Notes under the pieces: model-generated
Database searches by the model: none
What the model was told of the DNA's origin: nothing
What the model saw: the letters and a program-made list of their open reading frames with translations, nothing else
Shown here: positions 1,694 through 10,109 of the stretch, in pieces
Position numbering within the stretch: the first letter of the stretch is position 1
Layout: the number at the start of each line of letters is the position of its first letter
Virus record (IMG/VR): IMGVR_UViG_2648501392_000020
DNA: 10,109 nucleotides
Direction: 5' to 3' (one strand)
Source of the DNA: a virus
Lineage: Duplodnaviria > Heunggongvirae > Uroviricota > Caudoviricetes
Position numbers and translations under genes: made by a program

Positions 1694-2236
1694 TTACTCG
1701 CCTTTGTTCTGTAGCAACTTCTCAGGCGCGCTTCCGGTAGTTTCCATCAGGTAATCAGCCAGTATCTGTGGCAGGTTTTCGTCAAGTCTTGCACATGCGT
1801 TACATGCTTTGGCTATTTCCCTTTTTAGTTCATCCAGCATATACGGCCTTATATCGGGAAAGCGCCTTTGCATTGTGAGCGGGAGGCTGTCCATGATTGA
1901 TGAAATCTGACTCGCTAGTTTTGAGATCGCGTAGATGCAAAACTTTGTATCAATCACCTCGCCGCGTTCGCGCTCGTTTTTAAGTTCCTGCGCTTCCGCC
2001 TGGGCCGTCATTAATCTGATTCTTACGCGTAAAAGTTCATCATCATCAATCTCGCCTTTGTCGTTTGTAAGCTGGTTAATTGCATTGTTAACCCTATTGT
2101 CTATCACGCTAGCAACATCATAAAACGCCTCACGGCCTTTACGCTCAACGGGAGTTACTCCCCACTTGTCGAACGCTGTCGCACTTACGCGGCAGCTTTG
2201 CGCCATAGTTTTTTTGTTCATCAGGTGCGATTTCAT
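1694..2236 (-). CDS. Terminase small subunit, lambda Nu1-like
   Basis: Translation aligns with lambda Nu1 as I remember it (ours RLMTAQAEAQELKNERERGEVIDTKFCIYAISKLASQISSIMDSLPLTMQRRFPDI vs lambda RLTRAQADAQELKNARDSAEVVETAFCTFVLSRIAGEIASILDGLPLSVQRRFPEL). Start at ATG 2236 has a GTGGGG Shine-Dalgarno; alternative ATG at 2221 gives MNKKT, matching lambda MEVNKK. The cos site lies immediately upstream. Confidence 0.85.
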   Translation of the reverse strand: MKSHLMNKKTMAQSCRVSATAFDKWGVTPVERKGREAFYDVASVIDNRVNNAINQLTNDKGEIDDDELLRVRIRLMTAQAEAQELKNERERGEVIDTKFCIYAISKLASQISSIMDSLPLTMQRRFPDIRPYMLDELKREIAKACNACARLDENLPQILADYLMETTGSAPEKLLQNKGE

Positions 2237-2263
2237 CAATATCCCCACTTAGTTAAGGTTTCA

Positions 2264-2338
2264 GGTTGGTGTGTTGGTGTTATCTTTCCCTTTTTATTCA
2301 TAGAGATAGAGCGAAAAACAAAACCACCACCACCAACC
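2264..2338. repeat. cosB-like region: inverted GGTTGGTG / CACCAACC repeat blocks flanking an AT-rich spacer; candidate TerS-binding elements
   Basis: ggttggtgtgttggtg at 2264-2279 and accaccaccaccaacc at 2323-2338 on the plus strand, between cosN and the terS start. Differs from the lambda sequence at the equivalent position. Confidence 0.45.
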
Positions 2339-2369
2339 CGAAAAGGCTCATAAATAGCGAAAATCCGCA

Positions 2370-5113: not shown

Positions 5114-5325
5114 GCCCACCTGTGCCCACTTTTTCTACCCACTTTTCATGGTTTCCCACTTCGTCCCACCTGGGATTTTGTGGTTTTATATCGTACTGTT
5201 TCATAAGAATTTTTTTAGTGCCCACTTTTTGGGATGTATACACGTGGGAAAGTGGGCGATTTTGTTAAATTCCAGTTAAATTACCCACTATTCCCACTTT
5301 TAACGCCCACTTTTTACAGTGGGTG
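5114..5325. repeat. Iteron cluster (CCCACT(TTT), at least 9 direct and 3 inverted copies); probable island replication origin
   Basis: cccac(t/c) at 5115, 5125, 5138, 5155, 5165, 5221, 5284, 5293 and 5306; inverted agtggg/gtggga at 5244, 5251 and 5318. Lies immediately 3' of the helicase-initiator gene. Confidence 0.7.
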
Positions 5326-6720
5326 AACATCATCCCCATCGACGCAAATCACGCCGTCTTTTTCCAGTTTGGCTAACCATCGTTTAAGGTGTTTTGTGTC
5401 ATATCCCAGCTTTTTCATGTCATCACGTAGCAGCGGGATCGTGCATTTATCACCATGCTGTATACGTGACCGGATACAACCCCATAAAGCCGTGTGATTT
5501 TCCGTCTTGTTCCCGGCCTCCTCTATGCGCTCCAGTTCAGCAGGGGCGCGGGGAACGTCAATCACCACCATGGACACGATTTCTTCACCCTCAGGATCCG
5601 TAAATACCTCCACGCTCTTAAGGTCGTAGGCGCTTTCTTTTGGCTCCTCCGCGTCCTTCATCTTCTTACATGCTGCAACCAGCGCCGTAGCCTCTGAATG
5701 TTCCCGACTGATTCGGAACTCAGCATCAAGCGCCGCACGGAATGCACTGGAACCCCGCGCCCCTTTCGTCTCATCCTTGCCGGAATGATGCACAACCAGA
5801 ACCGTGGCCCCCGTGGCCTGCTTTATCGCGTCACACCCCTGGATAAACGCCCCCATGTCGCGGGAGTCATTTTCATCATGACCACCAAAGCAACGGGCCA
5901 GCGTGTCAATGACAATCATCCGCACCCTTTCGCCCGTTCTGTCCTGCACTAATCCGGCGGTCCTGATAACCTGCTCCACATAGTCAGGCGATGCAGGGAA
6001 GACAGGCGCGTTAACGATGCACAAATCCGTAACCACCTTGTCGTGGGTTATCTCCCACGCCTTAACGCGGCGTTTTACGCCCATACTGCCTTCGCCAGCG
6101 ATATAGATAACCGCGCCCTTACTTACCCTGCGGCCTCCCCATGCCATACCTGTGGCAACATGACACGACCAGGAAATAGCCAGGAACGATTTATAAGAAC
6201 CGCTGGCCCCGTAGGTGCTGCATAATGATTCAGCCGGAATAAGCCCCTTAATTACGTAGCTTTGCTGCGCGTCGAATCCCTCAGAACCCCATGAGATGGG
6301 AAGTGTGATTTTTCGCTTTCCGCCATTCATGACCAGACTTTCCCCGCGTTCCCAGGTTTCTTTAAGTCGGGGTAGTTGCTCGCTCCAGTCCTCCAGTAGT
6401 TCGAAATTCTCTGAAAGTAACCGCGCTTCCCGGACACCTGCGATCGCCAGTTTGGTGGCAATGGTCAGCATCTGCATATCGTCCAGGTTTCCGGCGCGTA
6501 TGACCTTTGCTCTGTATCGTCCTTCATCAACAATCTGTAAATTGTCCAGTTCGCTTAACTGATAACGGCCCAGGTAAACCGGAGGGATGGGATCGCCTGC
6601 TTTTTTGGCCTGTGCAATCATGTAATGTTCTGCAAAGGAGTGAGCATTATCACCCGCAAAAATAACCGCCTCAGTGTGTTTATCTTTCGGTAACAGTTTT
6701 ACGTTCGGTGCCAGTTTCAT
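5314..6720 (-). CDS. RecA-fold replicative helicase / replication initiator (RepA/DnaB-like, AAA_25-type) with C-terminal winged-helix-like domain
   Basis: 468 aa. Walker A GASGSYKS, Walker B-like MIVIDTL, HHSGKD motif. C-terminal basic helical segment (LLRDDMKKLGYDTKHLKRWLAKLEKDG) adjacent to the iterons. AGGGG Shine-Dalgarno. Confidence 0.85.
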   Translation of the reverse strand: MKLAPNVKLLPKDKHTEAVIFAGDNAHSFAEHYMIAQAKKAGDPIPPVYLGRYQLSELDNLQIVDEGRYRAKVIRAGNLDDMQMLTIATKLAIAGVREARLLSENFELLEDWSEQLPRLKETWERGESLVMNGGKRKITLPISWGSEGFDAQQSYVIKGLIPAESLCSTYGASGSYKSFLAISWSCHVATGMAWGGRRVSKGAVIYIAGEGSMGVKRRVKAWEITHDKVVTDLCIVNAPVFPASPDYVEQVIRTAGLVQDRTGERVRMIVIDTLARCFGGHDENDSRDMGAFIQGCDAIKQATGATVLVVHHSGKDETKGARGSSAFRAALDAEFRISREHSEATALVAACKKMKDAEEPKESAYDLKSVEVFTDPEGEEIVSMVVIDVPRAPAELERIEEAGNKTENHTALWGCIRSRIQHGDKCTIPLLRDDMKKLGYDTKHLKRWLAKLEKDGVICVDGDDVHPL

Positions 6721-7836: not shown

Positions 7837-8053
7837 GGTGCACCTCCTGCACATCAGCCATGATAATTTTTCCGGCCTTATCCAGTGCCTGATCGGCTTT
7901 TAGCTGCACAAATGCTAAATAATGGAAGATGCATTCTGATTCTCTGGCTGCGTGTTTATGCGCCCTGTCAGCAATAACAGAAATATCAATAAGCGCGTGC
8001 ATCAGCGTAGTGAGCGCGGCGGCTGCTGCGTCCGGTGTGGTTTTATTGCACAT
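7829..8053 (-). CDS. Hypothetical protein, 74 aa
   Basis: ATG at 8053 with GGGGGTAGG upstream. Overlaps neighbours at both ends as part of the coupled operon. Confidence 0.5.
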   Translation of the reverse strand: MCNKTTPDAAAAALTTLMHALIDISVIADRAHKHAARESECIFHYLAFVQLKADQALDKAGKIIMADVQEVHHA

Positions 8054-8249
8054 GGCCTACCCCCTGGCGAATACGGGCAGCGAATACCATCACGCAGCCA
8101 TCAGGAGATTGCTGACGCGCTTCCTGTTCGCTGGTGGCCTCAATGGTAATCACGCGCGGTTGTGCCGTGCTCAGGGCGATAAAACGCCAGATGTATTTAT
8201 TCAGGTTGTACGAGTCCCGCCCTTGCGGGTGTGTGGTATGATTTAACAT
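8043..8249 (-). CDS. Hypothetical protein, 68 aa; first gene of the leftward operon (shares frame with the tail of the 471-codon ORF)
   Basis: Internal ATG at 8249 with GAGGT Shine-Dalgarno 5 nt upstream, about 100 nt downstream of a TTGACA-N17-TAAAGT promoter-like element. Confidence 0.4.
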   Translation of the reverse strand: MLNHTTHPQGRDSYNLNKYIWRFIALSTAQPRVITIEATSEQEARQQSPDGCVMVFAARIRQGVGHVQ

Positions 8250-8347
8250 AGCTACCTCGATACTTTCGCTATCGTTGGTGGTTAGAAGCCCCGTTACTGC
8301 TCCTACAGTGCGGGGTTTCGTCGTTTCTGCACCTTGCATTAACAAGG

Positions 8348-8424
8348 TGTAAGTAACTTTATTTATAGGTGGCTTACATGTCAATGCTTTTATGTAAGAC
8401 TTTTTATGTGTATATTGTCTTACA
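8348..8424. promoter_or_regulatory. Divergent promoter/operator region: leftward promoter (-35 TTGACA 8379-8384, -10 TAAAGT 8356-8361 on minus strand) overlapped by four CTTACA/TGTAAG half-sites
   Basis: Half-sites tgtaag 8348-8353, cttaca 8373-8378, tgtaag 8393-8398, cttaca 8419-8424. Central palindrome CTTACA-N14-TGTAAG covers the -35. A TATATT -10-like hexamer at 8411-8416 faces the plus-strand gene. Confidence 0.5.
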
Positions 8425-8445
8425 CTTTCATTGAGAGGATTACAG

Positions 8446-8751
8446 ATGGCTACAGGTTCAAAAAACGCAAAATCACAATCACTGACAGCTCGGATCCCGC
8501 ATGATGTTATTGAAGGCATGGAATCCGTAAAACTGGACGGTGAAAGCAACGCCGGATTCATCGTAACCGCCATGCGCGGTGAAATCGCCCGCCGCCAGGC
8601 AGAAGGAAGCGGAGAAAACCTCCTGGTTTCTTCGCTCGATGCACTGGCGCAGGTGGAAAAAATCGGAGTCAAAGCAGCCGAGGAGATCGGGCAACTCATC
8701 ACCGTCGCGCGTGAAGAACTCCAGCGTCGCAAGGCCAAAGAGCAGGAGTAA
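8446..8751 (+). CDS. Ribbon-helix-helix-like small DNA-binding protein (candidate island regulator/repressor), 101 aa
   Basis: ATG at 8446 with GAGAGGA Shine-Dalgarno. N-terminal SLTARIPHDVIEGMESVKL...NAGFIVTAMRGEIARRQ fits a strand-helix-helix pattern; the C-terminal half is charged and helical. Composition is clearly more protein-like than the antisense frame. Confidence 0.6.
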   Translation: MATGSKNAKSQSLTARIPHDVIEGMESVKLDGESNAGFIVTAMRGEIARRQAEGSGENLLVSSLDALAQVEKIGVKAAEEIGQLITVAREELQRRKAKEQE

Positions 8752-8808
8752 CCATCACCAGCGCCGTGGTGTGAGTAACTACGGCGCATTGCTATGCAGG
8801 ACAACACA

Positions 8809-8982
8809 ATGACCGATAAAGAATTGACCAAAACATTATCACCGACACGGAAAAGACGGCGCAGAAAGATAGAGCATGAATCAGAAAGATTCGCGCCATG
8901 TGCTTTTGCCCTTGAGCAATTTCTTAAAGAGTACAGGGAAAAGCGCTCATTGCAGGTATGGCAACGAACTGAACCAGACTGA
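8809..8982 (+). CDS. Small basic hypothetical protein (about 57 aa)
   Basis: ATG at 8809 (alternative 8794) with weak AGGA upstream. Lies between the RHH gene and the plus-strand terminator. Lys/Arg/Glu-rich composition. Confidence 0.35.
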   Translation: MTDKELTKTLSPTRKRRRRKIEHESERFAPCAFALEQFLKEYREKRSLQVWQRTEPD

Positions 8983-9061
8983 TTGCATTGCCCACCAGCC
9001 GCAAATGTGGCATTGTTGGCGATGCTCATGCGTTGGGGATAACGTGTAGCTTGTGTCGAGG

Positions 9062-9090
9062 GGCCACCGTAGCGGGTGGCCTTTGTTTTG
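9062..9090 (+). terminator. Intrinsic terminator for the plus-strand RHH operon
   Basis: GGCCACC (9062-9068), loop gtagcg, GGTGGCC (9075-9081), then TTTGTTTTG (9082-9090). Confidence 0.6.
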
Positions 9091-9458
9091 CCTGTTATCC
9101 GGCAATTGTGGCGCTTCGCCACACGGTTGATATAATCCCACTGCTCAGATTCATTTTTTGCGCAGTAGGTTAATTGTTCACAAAGGCGCTCCGGCAACGG
9201 GGCGCTTTTTGTTTTTATTAGTTTGTAGAAACCTGACTCAGAGATAATGCTCATATTCTGATTGCCGTCAGGGGTGTAAGTTAAATTTACTCCCTTTTTA
9301 TCATCAAACATCTGCAACGCTCTGGCGTTAACAATATTGGTTTCACTCCCGCCAGTAAGGCCGGAAATAACCGGAATAATTTCGGCAAAATTTTGCAGAT
9401 TCTGTTTTTCAGGACGAACGAAGCCCCGCCCTTGTTCGGGAGAATATCCAGTATTCAT
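9084..9458 (-). CDS. Bro-N / antirepressor-like ORF, 5' protein-like portion only; the frame stays open to 8043, so the 3' end is undefined
   Basis: ATG at 9458. Segment GNQNMSIISESGFYKLIKTKSAPLPERL resembles the Bro-N core (ISESGLY.LI.RS..P.A). No plus-strand ORF competes in 9180-9458. Downstream, the same frame has Ser/Cys/Arg-rich antisense-like composition. Confidence 0.4.
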
Positions 9459-9510: not shown

Positions 9511-9699
9511 TTAGTGAACTGCCTCGCAGCTTTCCTTCCATGCCAGAACTTCGGATAAAGACCAGCCAACGGAACGACCGCCGAGCTTACGCCGTGATGG
9601 GAATTGTCCGGTTTTTTCCAGGCGGTACCGACATGAACGGCTCAGGCCTGTAAGTTGCTGACATTCTTTTTCACGTATAAAGCGATCTGTGCTTAACAC
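9511..9699 (-). CDS. alpA: AlpA-family transcriptional regulator/excisionase-like protein, 62 aa, GTG start
   Basis: HTH block ECQQLTGLSRSCRYRLEKTGQFPSRRKLGGRSVGWSLSEVLAWKE matches the AlpA pattern. GTG at 9699 is preceded by AAAGGGGGA. The upstream ATGs at 9807 and 9867 lack a Shine-Dalgarno and would give an atypically long N-terminus. Confidence 0.65.
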   Translation of the reverse strand: MLSTDRFIREKECQQLTGLSRSCRYRLEKTGQFPSRRKLGGRSVGWSLSEVLAWKESCEAVH

Positions 9700-10109
9700 A
9701 ATTCCCCCTTTGATATTTCTTAAAGAGTTATTTGGTGTCCTATTGTGTTGTGGTGCTTCGGATTGTGTCAGGGTGTTTATGGAATGGCAAACACTGGCGG
9801 CGGTCATTTTACAGAAGTGTGGTAATGAGAATAAAAACTCTTTTAATTCATTGTGGTGCAAAGGCATAAAATTCTGTTTTTACGCCTTTTTTACATGTTT
9901 TTAAGAGTGATTCGCCAATGTACAAAAAGCCAGTAAAACGACTGAAAATCAACTTTTTAGGGTGTCAGTCAGATGTTAATCAAGTTTGTTCCAGATTGTT
10001 CGCCGTTGTTCGTCGTGGTGTCTCGTTGTTTCACGTTGTGTCAGTTCTAAAAAATCGCAAAAAAAATTATATTTCTCTGGCTATTGGCAGTGTGGTTACG
10101 TTTTTGTGA

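What the first reader, a model, noticed from the sequence alone, without database searches (positions are those of the whole stretch)
8348..8424. Four-half-site operator array overlapping the early promoter, facing an RHH-like gene
CTTACA/TGTAAG half-sites occur four times at 8348, 8373, 8393 and 8419, forming a central palindrome that covers the -35 TTGACA of the leftward promoter. The adjacent divergently transcribed gene encodes an RHH-like protein. This is the classic layout of a master repressor controlling the island early operon, and the place where a helper-encoded inducer would act.
Basis: partly seen in the sequence, partly recalled or inferred. Interest (0 to 1): 0.5.

Follow-up and report, generated by a model that had tools for sequence, protein, structure and literature searches.

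The report
Operator array of a PICI repressor
A phage-satellite island of E. coli has four evenly spaced DNA sites over two back-to-back promoters, and comparison with about 55 related islands indicates that they are the binding sites of the small ribbon-helix-helix protein encoded next door, a likely missing repressor of Gram-negative satellite islands.

Summary
In detail: CTTACA/TGTAAG lies at 8348, 8373, 8393 and 8419, around a leftward promoter TTGACA-17-TAAAGT. Alone the cluster is only suggestive, since 6.5% of simulated windows hold a comparable one. The comparative evidence is what makes the case.

In 55 distinct related loci, including the studied PICI EcCICFT073, sites sit at the same positions every 22-23 bp. 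The motif differs between loci. It tracks four residues (12-15) of the adjacent YlcI/YnfO-family protein, giving 16 classes and a near-diagonal cross-match matrix. Icd-like, AlpA and the small downstream ORF recombine freely and do not track it.

I refine the description. These are four whole ~11-bp dimer sites, not half-sites of one palindrome, placed symmetrically over divergent promoters.

Best reading (inferred, untested): an autoregulated, locus-specific repressor of the early/replication operon. The claim that a helper inducer acts here is not supported. In EcCICFT073 the helper acts through alpA.

The "intergenic" region also lies inside a conserved long antisense ORF resembling P4 eta/kil.

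The parts
8347..8357 (.). Site 1 (GTGTAAGTAAC; core TGTAAG 8348-8353). It covers the 3' edge of the -10 and the predicted start of the leftward promoter.
   Evidence: A locus-specific repeat sits at the homologous position (about -98 from the ylcI-like ATG) in related loci.
8356..8361 (-). -10 hexamer TAAAGT of the leftward promoter P_left.
   Evidence: Equivalent promoters at the same place in L003 and L013.
8369..8379 (.). Site 2 (GTGGCTTACAT; core CTTACA 8373-8378). It lies in the P_left spacer and abuts the -35.
   Evidence: position about -76 in relatives.
8379..8384 (-). -35 hexamer TTGACA of P_left.
   Evidence: GTCAA(G/T/C) is kept in most related loci.
8392..8402 (.). Site 3 (ATGTAAGACTT; core TGTAAG 8393-8398). 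It lies over the -35/spacer region of the proposed rightward promoter.
   Evidence: position about -53 in relatives.
8411..8416 (+). Proposed -10 (TATATT) of the rightward ylcI-like promoter P_right. Its -35 is weak.
   Evidence: Read from the sequence. TATACT/TATAAT/TATATT is conserved at this position in most related loci. The consensus scan does not call it because of the poor -35.
8415..8425 (.). Site 4 (TTGTCTTACAC; core CTTACA 8419-8424; an exact GTGTAAGAC on the minus strand). It covers the -10 edge and predicted start of P_right.
   Evidence: position about -31 in relatives.
8446..8751 (+). YlcI/YnfO-family gene (101 aa). It has an N-terminal ribbon-helix-helix domain (strand about 10-17, helices 19-28 and 35-52), then a 42-residue helical insert and a basic tail. 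It is the proposed cognate repressor.
   Evidence: Covariation of residues 12-15 with the site motif.
8043..8249 (-). Icd-like gene (68 aa), first gene of the leftward operon. It falls in the same PHROG as the C-terminal part of the P4 'cI ORF' (Kil/Eta).
8254..8349 (-). Structured leader of the leftward transcript, with three hairpins (8349-8330, 8319-8285, 8279-8254). The second and third are conserved with compensatory changes.
   Evidence: z = -3.2; 9 of 13 predicted pairs show double changes.
8043..9458 (-). Long ORF (471 aa) with a Bro-N/antirepressor-like N-terminus and an Icd-like C-terminus. It runs through the operator array and antisense through the whole ylcI-like gene. It is the eta/kil-like nested gene.
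8794..8982 (+). Small basic ORF (62 aa) downstream of ylcI-like, probably co-transcribed with it. It is not the specificity determinant.
   Evidence: phrog_21027; 98% identical in loci with six other motif classes.
9511..9867 (-). alpA (Phage_AlpA domain), upstream and co-oriented with the long ORF. PGAP calls only 9512-9700.
   Evidence: It is 100% identical in loci that carry other motif classes.

Best explanation
The window is an EcCICFT073-type Gram-negative phage-inducible chromosomal island (PICI). Its order is int (interrupted by an IS), alpA, a Bro/regulatory zone, a replication operon and a few captured late genes.

The four motifs are four complete, roughly 11-bp binding sites for dimers of the adjacent 101-aa YlcI/YnfO-family ribbon-helix-helix (RHH) protein. 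They are spaced every 22-23 bp and placed mirror-symmetrically over two back-to-back promoters.
- Sites 1 and 2 bracket the core of the strong leftward promoter (start/-10 edge, and the spacer next to the -35). This promoter drives Icd-like, small ORFs, the RepA-type helicase and SSB.
- Sites 3 and 4 occupy the same positions on the weak rightward promoter of the RHH gene itself.

Occupancy should occlude RNA polymerase. That would keep the early/replication operon and the toxic Icd/Kil-like gene off in the resting island, and would autoregulate the repressor.

Residues 12-15 of the DNA-reading strand and the core of the sites have diversified together into at least 16 specificity classes. These work like immunity types, so that related islands, often several per genome, do not cross-regulate.

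What is shown and what is inferred:
- Shown here: the anatomy, its conservation, the covariation and the fold.
- Inferred: binding itself, the sign of regulation, and the route of induction.
- Induction most likely runs through AlpA-dependent transcription entering from upstream (as published for EcCICFT073). That transcription would read antisense through the repressor gene and across the operators, in the way P4's late promoter overrides its immunity region.
For: Anatomy:
- Hexamers and extended 9-mers at 8347-8425.
- P_left TTGACA-17-TAAAGT, positionally conserved in L003 and L013.

Conservation with change:
- In 55 distinct related loci from E. coli, Enterobacter, Photorhabdus, Yersinia, Pantoea, Xenorhabdus and metagenomes, 3-5 copies of a locus-specific 9-mer lie at about -120/-98/-76/-53/-31 from the ATG.

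Covariation:
- A locus's own word hits a mean of 3.5 times in loci of the same strand class and 0.4 times in other classes. The 16 x 16 class matrix is near-diagonal, with cross-hits mainly between near-identical tetrads (LTTV/LFTV; SLTA/SVTA/SVTV) plus a few scattered weaker ones.

Natural swaps:
- Icd-like is above 90% identical to the window's in 8 other motif classes, yet only 47% identical in L002, which has the same four sites.
- AlpA is 100% identical in loci of classes LTTV and MKNI.
- The small ORF is 98% identical in loci of 6 other classes.
- Only the YlcI-like N-terminus tracks the motif.

Reverse test:
- Searching IMG/VR with the DNA pattern alone returned 25 four-site arrays, every one next to KSQSLTARIPHD.

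Fold:
- AlphaFold2 model of residues 1-55, pLDDT 88.7.
- hhalign to Arc puts S12/T14/R16 on Arc's base-contacting Q9/N11/R13 (weak, P = 0.009).
- The only contiguous variable block of the domain is residues 12-15.

No further sites:
- There is no second cluster of sites in the window.
- IMG/VR gave no clear phage target among the above-chance hits.

Context:
- EcCICFT073 has the same module.
- Its authors state that a global repressor of Gram-negative PICIs is unclear (PMC6092414).
Against: - There are no binding, footprint, reporter or transcription-start data for this protein family in the library searched.
- Sequence profiles do not place it in a Pfam RHH family, and no PDB sequence match was found. 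The fold call therefore rests on a monomer model.
- The operators and the 5' end of the gene are adjacent, so some association would arise from linkage alone.
- P_right has a poor -35 and was not called by the scan. The protein could activate it rather than repress it.
- In EcCICFT073, AlpA over-expression alone induces replication (PMC6092414). This repressor, if it is one, is therefore not an absolute lock.
- The antisense long ORF also covaries by necessity, because it is the same DNA.
Confidence: 0.7

Rival explanations
1. SaPI-style master repressor. The RHH protein is the single lock on the island, and a helper-phage protein binds it (anti-repressor) or acts at this operator to induce the island.
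For: - The gene is positionally analogous to stl/rpr of Gram-positive PICIs: a repressor gene pointing toward int, divergent from the replication operon (PMC6092414 introduction).
- The phage-encoded inducer of EcCICFT073 was still unidentified in 2018 (PMC6092414).
Against: - In EcCICFT073, which carries the same module, the helper raises alpA expression on a reporter plasmid in strains lacking the island.
- AlpA alone induces excision and replication, and deletion of alpA abolishes transfer (PMC6092414). EcCIMP1 behaves likewise (PMC11773190).
- The fold is RHH, not the CI-like HTH of Stl.
- Nothing in the sequence speaks for an anti-repressor interaction.
Confidence: 0.15
2. The sites are bound by a different factor: the Icd-like protein (labelled 'transcriptional repressor' in PHROGs), AlpA, the small basic ORF, or a host or helper protein.
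For: - The Icd-like protein matches phrog_6196 and phrog_1743, both labelled 'transcriptional repressor'.
- AlpA-family proteins bind DNA.
Against: - Icd-like, AlpA and the small ORF are each at least 92-100% identical to the window's in loci whose motif is different. Icd-like is only 47% identical in a locus with the identical array.
- The PHROG label traces to the obsolete 'cI gene product' ORF of P4, which shares phrog_1743. P4 immunity is an RNA (PMC10111431).
- A host or helper factor could not follow 16 locus-specific motifs.
Confidence: 0.04
3. The RHH protein binds the array but works mainly as an activator or architectural factor. It might activate its own weak promoter, or organise DNA for replication or packaging, rather than repress the early operon.
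For: - P_right has a poor -35 and site 3 sits beside it, as at P22 P_mnt or lambda P_RM (general knowledge).
- The regular 22-23 bp phasing of 3-5 sites would suit a higher-order nucleoprotein complex.
- The long form carries an extra helical domain.
Against: - Sites 1 and 2 lie within the core of a near-consensus promoter, in the spacer and at the start. That is a repressing geometry, and sites 3 and 4 mirror it on P_right.
- The likely replication-origin iterons are elsewhere, at 5125-5318.
- Short forms lacking the extra domain keep the same array.
Confidence: 0.09
4. There is no operator. The repeats are chance, or a by-product of coding or RNA-structure constraints of the overlapping long ORF and leader.
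For: - 6.5% of simulated windows contain some hexamer repeated at least 4 times in 77 bp.
- The region is inside a conserved ORF.
Against: - The same positions carry 3-5 copies of a different word in each of 16 classes. Neither chance nor a shared coding constraint predicts this.
- The repeats straddle promoter elements symmetrically.
Confidence: 0.02

Closest known systems
P22 immI region: Mnt and Arc ribbon-helix-helix repressors at the divergent P_mnt / P_ant promoters
   Same: - A small RHH repressor is transcribed divergently from an operon that encodes an antirepressor-type (Bro/Ant-like) function.
- The operator overlaps the core of the opposing promoter, and the repressor autoregulates.
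- Like Mnt, the long form has an RHH domain followed by a C-terminal helical domain.
- The Mnt/Arc facts are from general knowledge, not tested here.
   Different: - Only weak sequence relationship to Arc (hhalign P = 0.009).
- Four (3-5) whole sites phased at 22-23 bp over two promoters, instead of one 17-21 bp operator.
- The host element is a satellite, not a phage.
- The gene lies antisense inside a long ORF.
Stl / Rpr master repressors of SaPIs and other Gram-positive PICIs
   Same: - Same position and orientation in the island: between int and the replication operon, divergent from the latter.
- Many allelic specificities.
- The presumed role is to keep the island quiescent (PMC6092414).
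   Different: - Stl/Rpr are CI-like helix-turn-helix proteins relieved by helper anti-repressors.
- Here the fold is RHH.
- The documented trigger in this island family is the activator AlpA (PMC6092414, PMC11773190).
Satellite phage P4 immunity region (P_LE, CI/C4 RNA, nested eta/kil genes downstream of vis)
   Same: - Same gene order: alpA/vis, then a long Bro-network ORF whose C-terminal part is a Kil/Icd-type protein (shared phrog_1743).
- An internal promoter sits inside that ORF, followed by a structured leader, then the replication genes (PMC10111431).
   Different: - P4 immunity is the C4-family CI RNA with seqA/isrK targets.
- The window has no C4, isrK or c4-a1b1 match at E up to 1.
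- Instead it has a protein gene plus operators embedded antisense.
Omega (pSM19035) and CopG-type RHH repressors
   Same: - Omega binds arrays of short repeats in direct or inverted orientation at promoters. This resembles the variable orientation seen here between classes.
   Different: - Omega heptads are contiguous (7-bp register).
- Here the sites are 11 bp long, separated by about 11-12 bp, and tied to promoter elements.

Membership tests
Ribbon-helix-helix (Arc/MetJ/CopG) DNA-binding superfamily | N-terminal strand followed by two helices (beta-alpha-alpha), about 45 residues. | tested here: met
   [not shown]
Ribbon-helix-helix (Arc/MetJ/CopG) DNA-binding superfamily | Detectable sequence-profile membership in a curated RHH family. 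| tested here: inconclusive
   No Pfam RHH/Arc/CopG hit, even at E up to 10, and no PDB sequence hit for the N-terminal profile. hhalign to Arc is weak. Some UniRef names for homologues read 'Arc-like DNA binding domain' or 'CopG family'.
Ribbon-helix-helix (Arc/MetJ/CopG) DNA-binding superfamily | Obligate dimer whose paired strands enter the major groove of a short (pseudo)symmetric site. | not testable with these tools
   Only monomer prediction was possible. Indirect support comes from the roughly 11-bp quasi-palindromic sites (GTGT-nnn-ACAC; perfect palindromes in classes TVAA and KKNI) and from variable residues at strand positions 12-15.
YlcI/YnfO family (NCBIfam NF041551; DUF3950-related) | Match to the 42-residue N-terminal model above its cut-off. 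| tested here: met
   70.8 bits against a cut-off of 30, E = 7e-20, residues 9-50. RefSeq names it so. A divergent member (L022) hits PF13132 DUF3950.
Gram-negative PICI (EcCICFT073 type) | int, then alpA, then a Bro zone, a replication module and a short late zone, about 10-15 kb, without tail or lysis genes. | tested here: met
   AlpA, a Bro-N-like ORF, a RepA-type helicase (AAA_25), SSB, major capsid, decoration protein and TerS, lying between smrA and abgR. The gene set matches EcCICFT073 and the four-zone scheme of PMC10111431.
Gram-negative PICI (EcCICFT073 type) | Induction, excision and packaging by a helper phage. | not testable with these tools
   In this copy the integrase is interrupted by ISVsa5, so this particular island may be immobile.
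SaPI/PICI master repressor (Stl/Rpr) | Repressor gene divergent from the replication operon, on the int side. | tested here: met
   Gene order.
SaPI/PICI master repressor (Stl/Rpr) | CI-like helix-turn-helix repressor relieved by binding of a helper-phage protein. | tested here: not met
   The fold is RHH. Derepression by a helper protein cannot be tested here. Published data for the same module's island point to AlpA (PMC6092414).
P4-type immunity region | C4/CI antisense RNA with seqA/isrK targets in the leader. | tested here: not met
   No C4, isrK or c4-a1b1 match in the window at E up to 1. P4 itself gives 74.9, 60.8 and 44.1 bits.
P4-type immunity region | Nested eta/kil genes downstream of the alpA/vis homologue, with an internal promoter. 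| tested here: inconclusive
   A long ORF stays open in 53 of 54 loci. Its openness over the 190 nt upstream of ylcI-like has P = 0.006-0.04 per locus under shuffling. The C-terminus shares phrog_1743 with the P4 ORF. There is no direct BLASTP similarity to P4, and translation is unproven.

The most novel reading that the evidence does not exclude
YlcI/YnfO-type RHH proteins are the so-far unrecognised immunity repressors of EcCICFT073-type Gram-negative PICIs. They have diversified into at least 16 operator specificities. The switch is a gene-within-gene device: the repressor gene and its four operators lie antisense inside a translated eta/kil-like ORF. Helper-induced, AlpA-driven transcription and translation of that ORF would then run head-on through the repressor gene and its operators and flip the island on. 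This would be a protein-based counterpart of P4's RNA immunity.
Probability: 0.3. Interest if true: 0.8.

Novelty: new variant of a known kind. Interest (0 to 1): 0.62.

Why it matters
Gram-negative PICIs are said to differ from Gram-positive ones in lacking a master repressor. Fillol-Salom et al. 2018 call the existence of one "unclear" and the difference "a mystery" (PMC6092414).

This analysis points to a concrete, overlooked candidate that is present in the model island EcCICFT073 itself. The window's 1-kb regulatory segment (8000-9000) finds matches in about a third of complete E. coli genomes (1780 of 5426).

It gives:
- the candidate gene;
- the exact sites to mutate;
- a natural table of 16 protein-strand/operator pairs, which amounts to a ready-made specificity code for an RHH family.

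It also assigns a fold and a probable function to the YlcI/YnfO (DUF3950-related) family, which is otherwise unannotated. It links PICI regulation architecturally to the P4 immunity region.

If the antisense nested-gene arrangement is functional, it would be an unusual regulatory device.

Tried and rejected
- **C4/CI-type immunity RNA in the leader.** I suspected one because of the Icd-like gene. Rfam gave no hit at E up to 1, whereas P4 scores strongly. Rejected.
- **Icd-like protein as the repressor (PHROG label).** Rejected by the natural swaps. The label traces to the obsolete P4 cI ORF annotation.
- **PDB sequence searches.** The full-length profile gave only a marginal helix-hairpin-helix-like match to Hef (E = 0.006). 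The N-terminal profile gave nothing.
- **tblastn against the phage collection.** The YlcI-like protein gave no match. The Icd-like protein gave one satellite-sized record.
- **Extra operator copies or helper-phage targets.** I found no second cluster in the window. In IMG/VR the gap-16 and gap-18 hits I inspected belong to this island family, and the total is near chance expectation. The remaining hits were not examined one by one.
- **Significance of the hexamer cluster alone.** It is only about 0.065 window-wide, so I did not rest the case on it.
- **Literature.** Searches for YlcI, YnfO, DUF3950 and EcCICFT073 with "repressor" found no functional study. The EcCIMP1 "putative repressor" is a PerC-family protein and is unrelated.
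- **Co-resident islands.** I could not test whether islands sharing one genome always differ in specificity class, because the search tool returns one place per record.

Full report
**1. What the window is**

The window matches the chromosome of E. coli O39:NM F8704-2 exactly. It lies between smrA and abgR.

The gene content, read leftward on the minus strand, is:
- an integrase interrupted by ISVsa5, just outside the window;
- alpA (9511-9867);
- a Bro-N-like stretch;
- an Icd-like gene (8043-8249);
- several small ORFs;
- a RepA-type helicase (5314-6720);
- SSB, a lambda-E-type major capsid gene, a decoration gene, an HTH gene and a Nu1-type small terminase.

This is the four-zone layout of Gram-negative phage-inducible chromosomal islands (PICIs) described in PMC10111431. 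It is essentially the gene set of the model island EcCICFT073.

One gene pair points the other way: a 101-aa YlcI/YnfO-family gene (8446-8751, NCBIfam 7e-20) followed by a 62-aa basic ORF.

**2. The observation**

CTTACA/TGTAAG is at 8348, 8373, 8393 and 8419.

The promoter scan finds one near-consensus sigma-70 site. It is on the minus strand: TTGACA 8384-8379, 17 bp, TAAAGT 8361-8356. The -35 therefore lies between sites 2 and 3 and touches site 2.

By itself the cluster is not overwhelming. 26 of 400 simulated windows had some hexamer repeated at least four times in 77 bp.

The matches extend to (G/A)TGTAAGAC, with 0-2 mismatches at the four sites.

Measured on an 11-bp frame, the centres are 22, 23 and 23 bp apart. 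Sites 1 and 2 bracket the core of the leftward promoter (start/-10 edge, and the spacer next to the -35). Sites 3 and 4 occupy the mirror positions around a conserved rightward -10 (TATATT 8411-8416), 30 bp before the ylcI-like start codon.

**3. Comparative evidence**

Loci gathered:
- a protein-guided scan of one genome per species, which gave 11 loci;
- E. coli records at graded identity;
- a metagenome scan, which gave 68 loci;
- EcCICFT073.

Together these make 55 distinct versions of the region.

The architecture is constant. GTCAA(G/T/C) marks the leftward -35, TATACT/TATAAT/TATATT marks the rightward -10, and repeats lie at about -98, -76, -53 and -31 from the ATG. Some classes have a fifth repeat at -120.

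The repeated word differs between loci. Examples are GTGTAAGAC, GTGTGTTTC, GTGTGATT, GTGTGCAT, GTGAGATAT, GTGTTGAACAC, TGTGCGCACA and GTGTGGCCCAC. Most share GTG(T)/(A)CAC arms. Several are perfect palindromes.

Orientation of the repeats is not conserved between classes, but spacing is. I therefore read each repeat as a whole dimer site rather than half of a larger palindrome.

**4. Which protein reads the sites**

The word tracks four residues of the YlcI-like protein (positions 12-15, in KSQ-xxxx-R[IV]PH).
- Sixteen tetrads correspond to sixteen words.
- A locus's word hits a mean of 3.5 times in loci of the same tetrad and 0.4 times in others.
- Cross-hits occur mainly between near-identical tetrads.

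The neighbouring genes are recombined independently.
- The Icd-like protein is above 90% identical to the window's in eight other classes. It is only 47% identical in Enterobacter soli L002, which has the same four sites.
- AlpA is 100% identical in loci of two other classes.
- The small ORF is 98% identical in loci of six other classes.

A reverse search of IMG/VR with the DNA pattern alone returned 25 four-site arrays. Every one lies next to KSQSLTARIPHD. A second group with an 18-bp gap consists of SVTA-class islands.

Physical linkage contributes to this association. However, the concerted change of all copies within a locus requires a trans factor encoded inside the co-varying block. The only such product, apart from the antisense reading of the same DNA, is the N-terminal domain of this protein.

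**5. Fold**

The full-length model (pLDDT 86.7) shows an extended N-terminus, helices 19-28 and 35-52, and one long helix 59-100.

A weak hhalign match to Arc places S12/T14/R16 on Arc's base-contacting Q9/N11/R13. Residues 12-15 are the only contiguous variable block of the domain.

Sequence-profile membership in curated RHH families was not obtained.

**6. Mechanism and what is known**

The geometry argues for occlusion of RNA polymerase at both promoters. That means repression of the early/replication operon, whose first product is a Kil/Icd-type protein, together with autoregulation. This is inference.

The nearest functional analogue is the P22 immI pair Mnt/Arc. The positional analogue is Stl/Rpr of Gram-positive PICIs.

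In EcCICFT073:
- helper phages raise alpA expression on a reporter plasmid in cells without the island;
- AlpA alone triggers excision and replication;
- deletion of alpA abolishes transfer (PMC6092414).

EcCIMP1 behaves similarly (PMC11773190).

The authors of PMC6092414 state that a global repressor in Gram-negative PICIs is "unclear". The small ylcI-like and Icd-like genes of EcCICFT073 (C_RS30120 and C_RS30125) appear in the current RefSeq annotation. I found no functional study of the family.

**7. The unexpected context**

The operator region is not simply intergenic.

In the window a minus-strand ORF runs from 9458 to 8043 (471 aa). It has a Bro-N/antirepressor-like N-terminus, crosses the small ORF, the whole ylcI-like gene (antisense) and the four sites, and ends as the Icd-like protein.

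Evidence that this is conserved:
- In 53 of 54 distinct loci one minus frame stays open for 190-536 codons across this region. The other two frames are open for 2-42 codons.
- The distance between the ylcI-like ATG and the Icd-like ATG is 197, 200 or 206 nt, all the same modulo 3. The exceptions are two loci at 198 nt, where the long ORF ends just before the Icd-like gene.
- Composition-preserving shuffles leave the 190 nt upstream of ylcI-like open with probability 0.006-0.04 per locus, yet 11 of 15 class representatives have no stop there.
- Inside ylcI-like the open antisense frame is less surprising (0.13-0.6 under synonymous shuffles, leaving aside L006, which carries a stop).

This matches the description of P4's nested eta/kil genes, with the internal promoter P_LE downstream of the alpA homologue vis (PMC10111431). 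The window's Icd-like protein and the P4 "cI ORF" share phrog_1743, although BLASTP sees no direct similarity.

P4's immunity factor is the C4-family CI RNA. The window has none.

The window's leader does carry three hairpins. Two of them are conserved with compensatory changes. Their role is unknown.

A plausible route of induction, untested, is AlpA-dependent transcription entering from upstream. It would read head-on through the repressor gene and across the operators, as P4's late promoter overrides immunity.

**8. Verdict**

- The identification of the RHH protein as cognate binder is strongly supported by comparative evidence, but it is not experimentally shown.
- The "master repressor / helper inducer acts here" reading is only partly supported.
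- The system is a new variant of a known kind: an RHH autoregulated repressor at divergent promoters. It sits in a place where a repressor was thought to be missing, and in an unusual antisense nested arrangement.

Noticed in passing
window 8043-9458 (-), and homologous regions of L002-L091: A long ORF (471 aa; Bro-N-like N-terminus, Icd-like C-terminus) runs through the operator array and antisense through the entire ylcI-like gene and the small ORF. One minus frame is open for 190-536 codons in 53 of 54 distinct related loci. Openness of the operator/leader part is improbable by shuffling (P = 0.006-0.04 per locus). It resembles the nested eta/kil genes of P4.
   Followed up: yes
window 8254-8349 (-): The leader between the leftward promoter and the Icd-like start folds into three hairpins (z = -3.2). 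The central one (8319-8285, followed by the conserved UCUAACCAC) and the one before the ribosome-binding site keep their pairing through compensatory changes in 22 diverse loci. There is no Rfam match and the function is unknown. It is the positional counterpart of P4's CI RNA region.
   Followed up: partly
window 5125-5318: Nine copies of CCCACT/AGTGGG lie within about 200 bp, at and just beyond the 3' end of the RepA-type helicase gene (stop at 5314). They are probably the iterons of the island's replication origin, which is where PICI origins are usually found.
   Followed up: no
window 2258-2344: A long, nearly perfect hairpin of about 87 nt lies just upstream of the small-terminase gene (1694-2248, minus strand), between it and the HTH gene. 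It produced a spurious microRNA match in Rfam. It could be a terminator, or a cos/packaging-related element.
   Followed up: no
window 8605-8735 (residues 54-97 of the YlcI-like protein): Long (about 101 aa) and short (about 59 aa) forms of the protein exist within the same specificity classes. They differ by a 42-residue helical insert placed before a shared basic tail (RRKAKEQE). The insert models as one long helix (pLDDT about 97). It has a marginal helix-hairpin-helix-like match to Hef (1x2i, E = 0.006). It may be an oligomerisation module, as in Mnt.
   Followed up: partly
L091 1-8700 (NC_004431.1 1380000-1388700, EcCICFT073): The experimentally studied PICI EcCICFT073 carries the same divergent YlcI-like / Icd-like module. 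Its strand tetrad is ALKA and its motif is GTGTGGCCCAC, and the same long antisense ORF is present. The small genes appear in the current RefSeq annotation, and I found no discussion of them in the PICI papers I read.
   Followed up: yes
L001 12044-12562; L013, L014, L016, L021, L022: PGAP calls the Icd-like gene with very different lengths (63 to 172 aa) in different genomes, sometimes overlapping the ylcI-like gene. This is a symptom of the long open frame. The PHROG label 'transcriptional repressor' for this family derives from the obsolete 'cI gene product' ORF of P4.
   Followed up: partly
L001 14068-16635 (just right of the window): The island's tyrosine integrase is split by an IS4-family ISVsa5 insertion, so this copy of the island is probably no longer able to excise.
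   Followed up: no
window 8794-8982 (+): A conserved, very basic 62-aa ORF (RKRRRRK motif, phrog_21027) follows the ylcI-like gene. It recombines independently of the operator class. Its function is unknown.
   Followed up: partly
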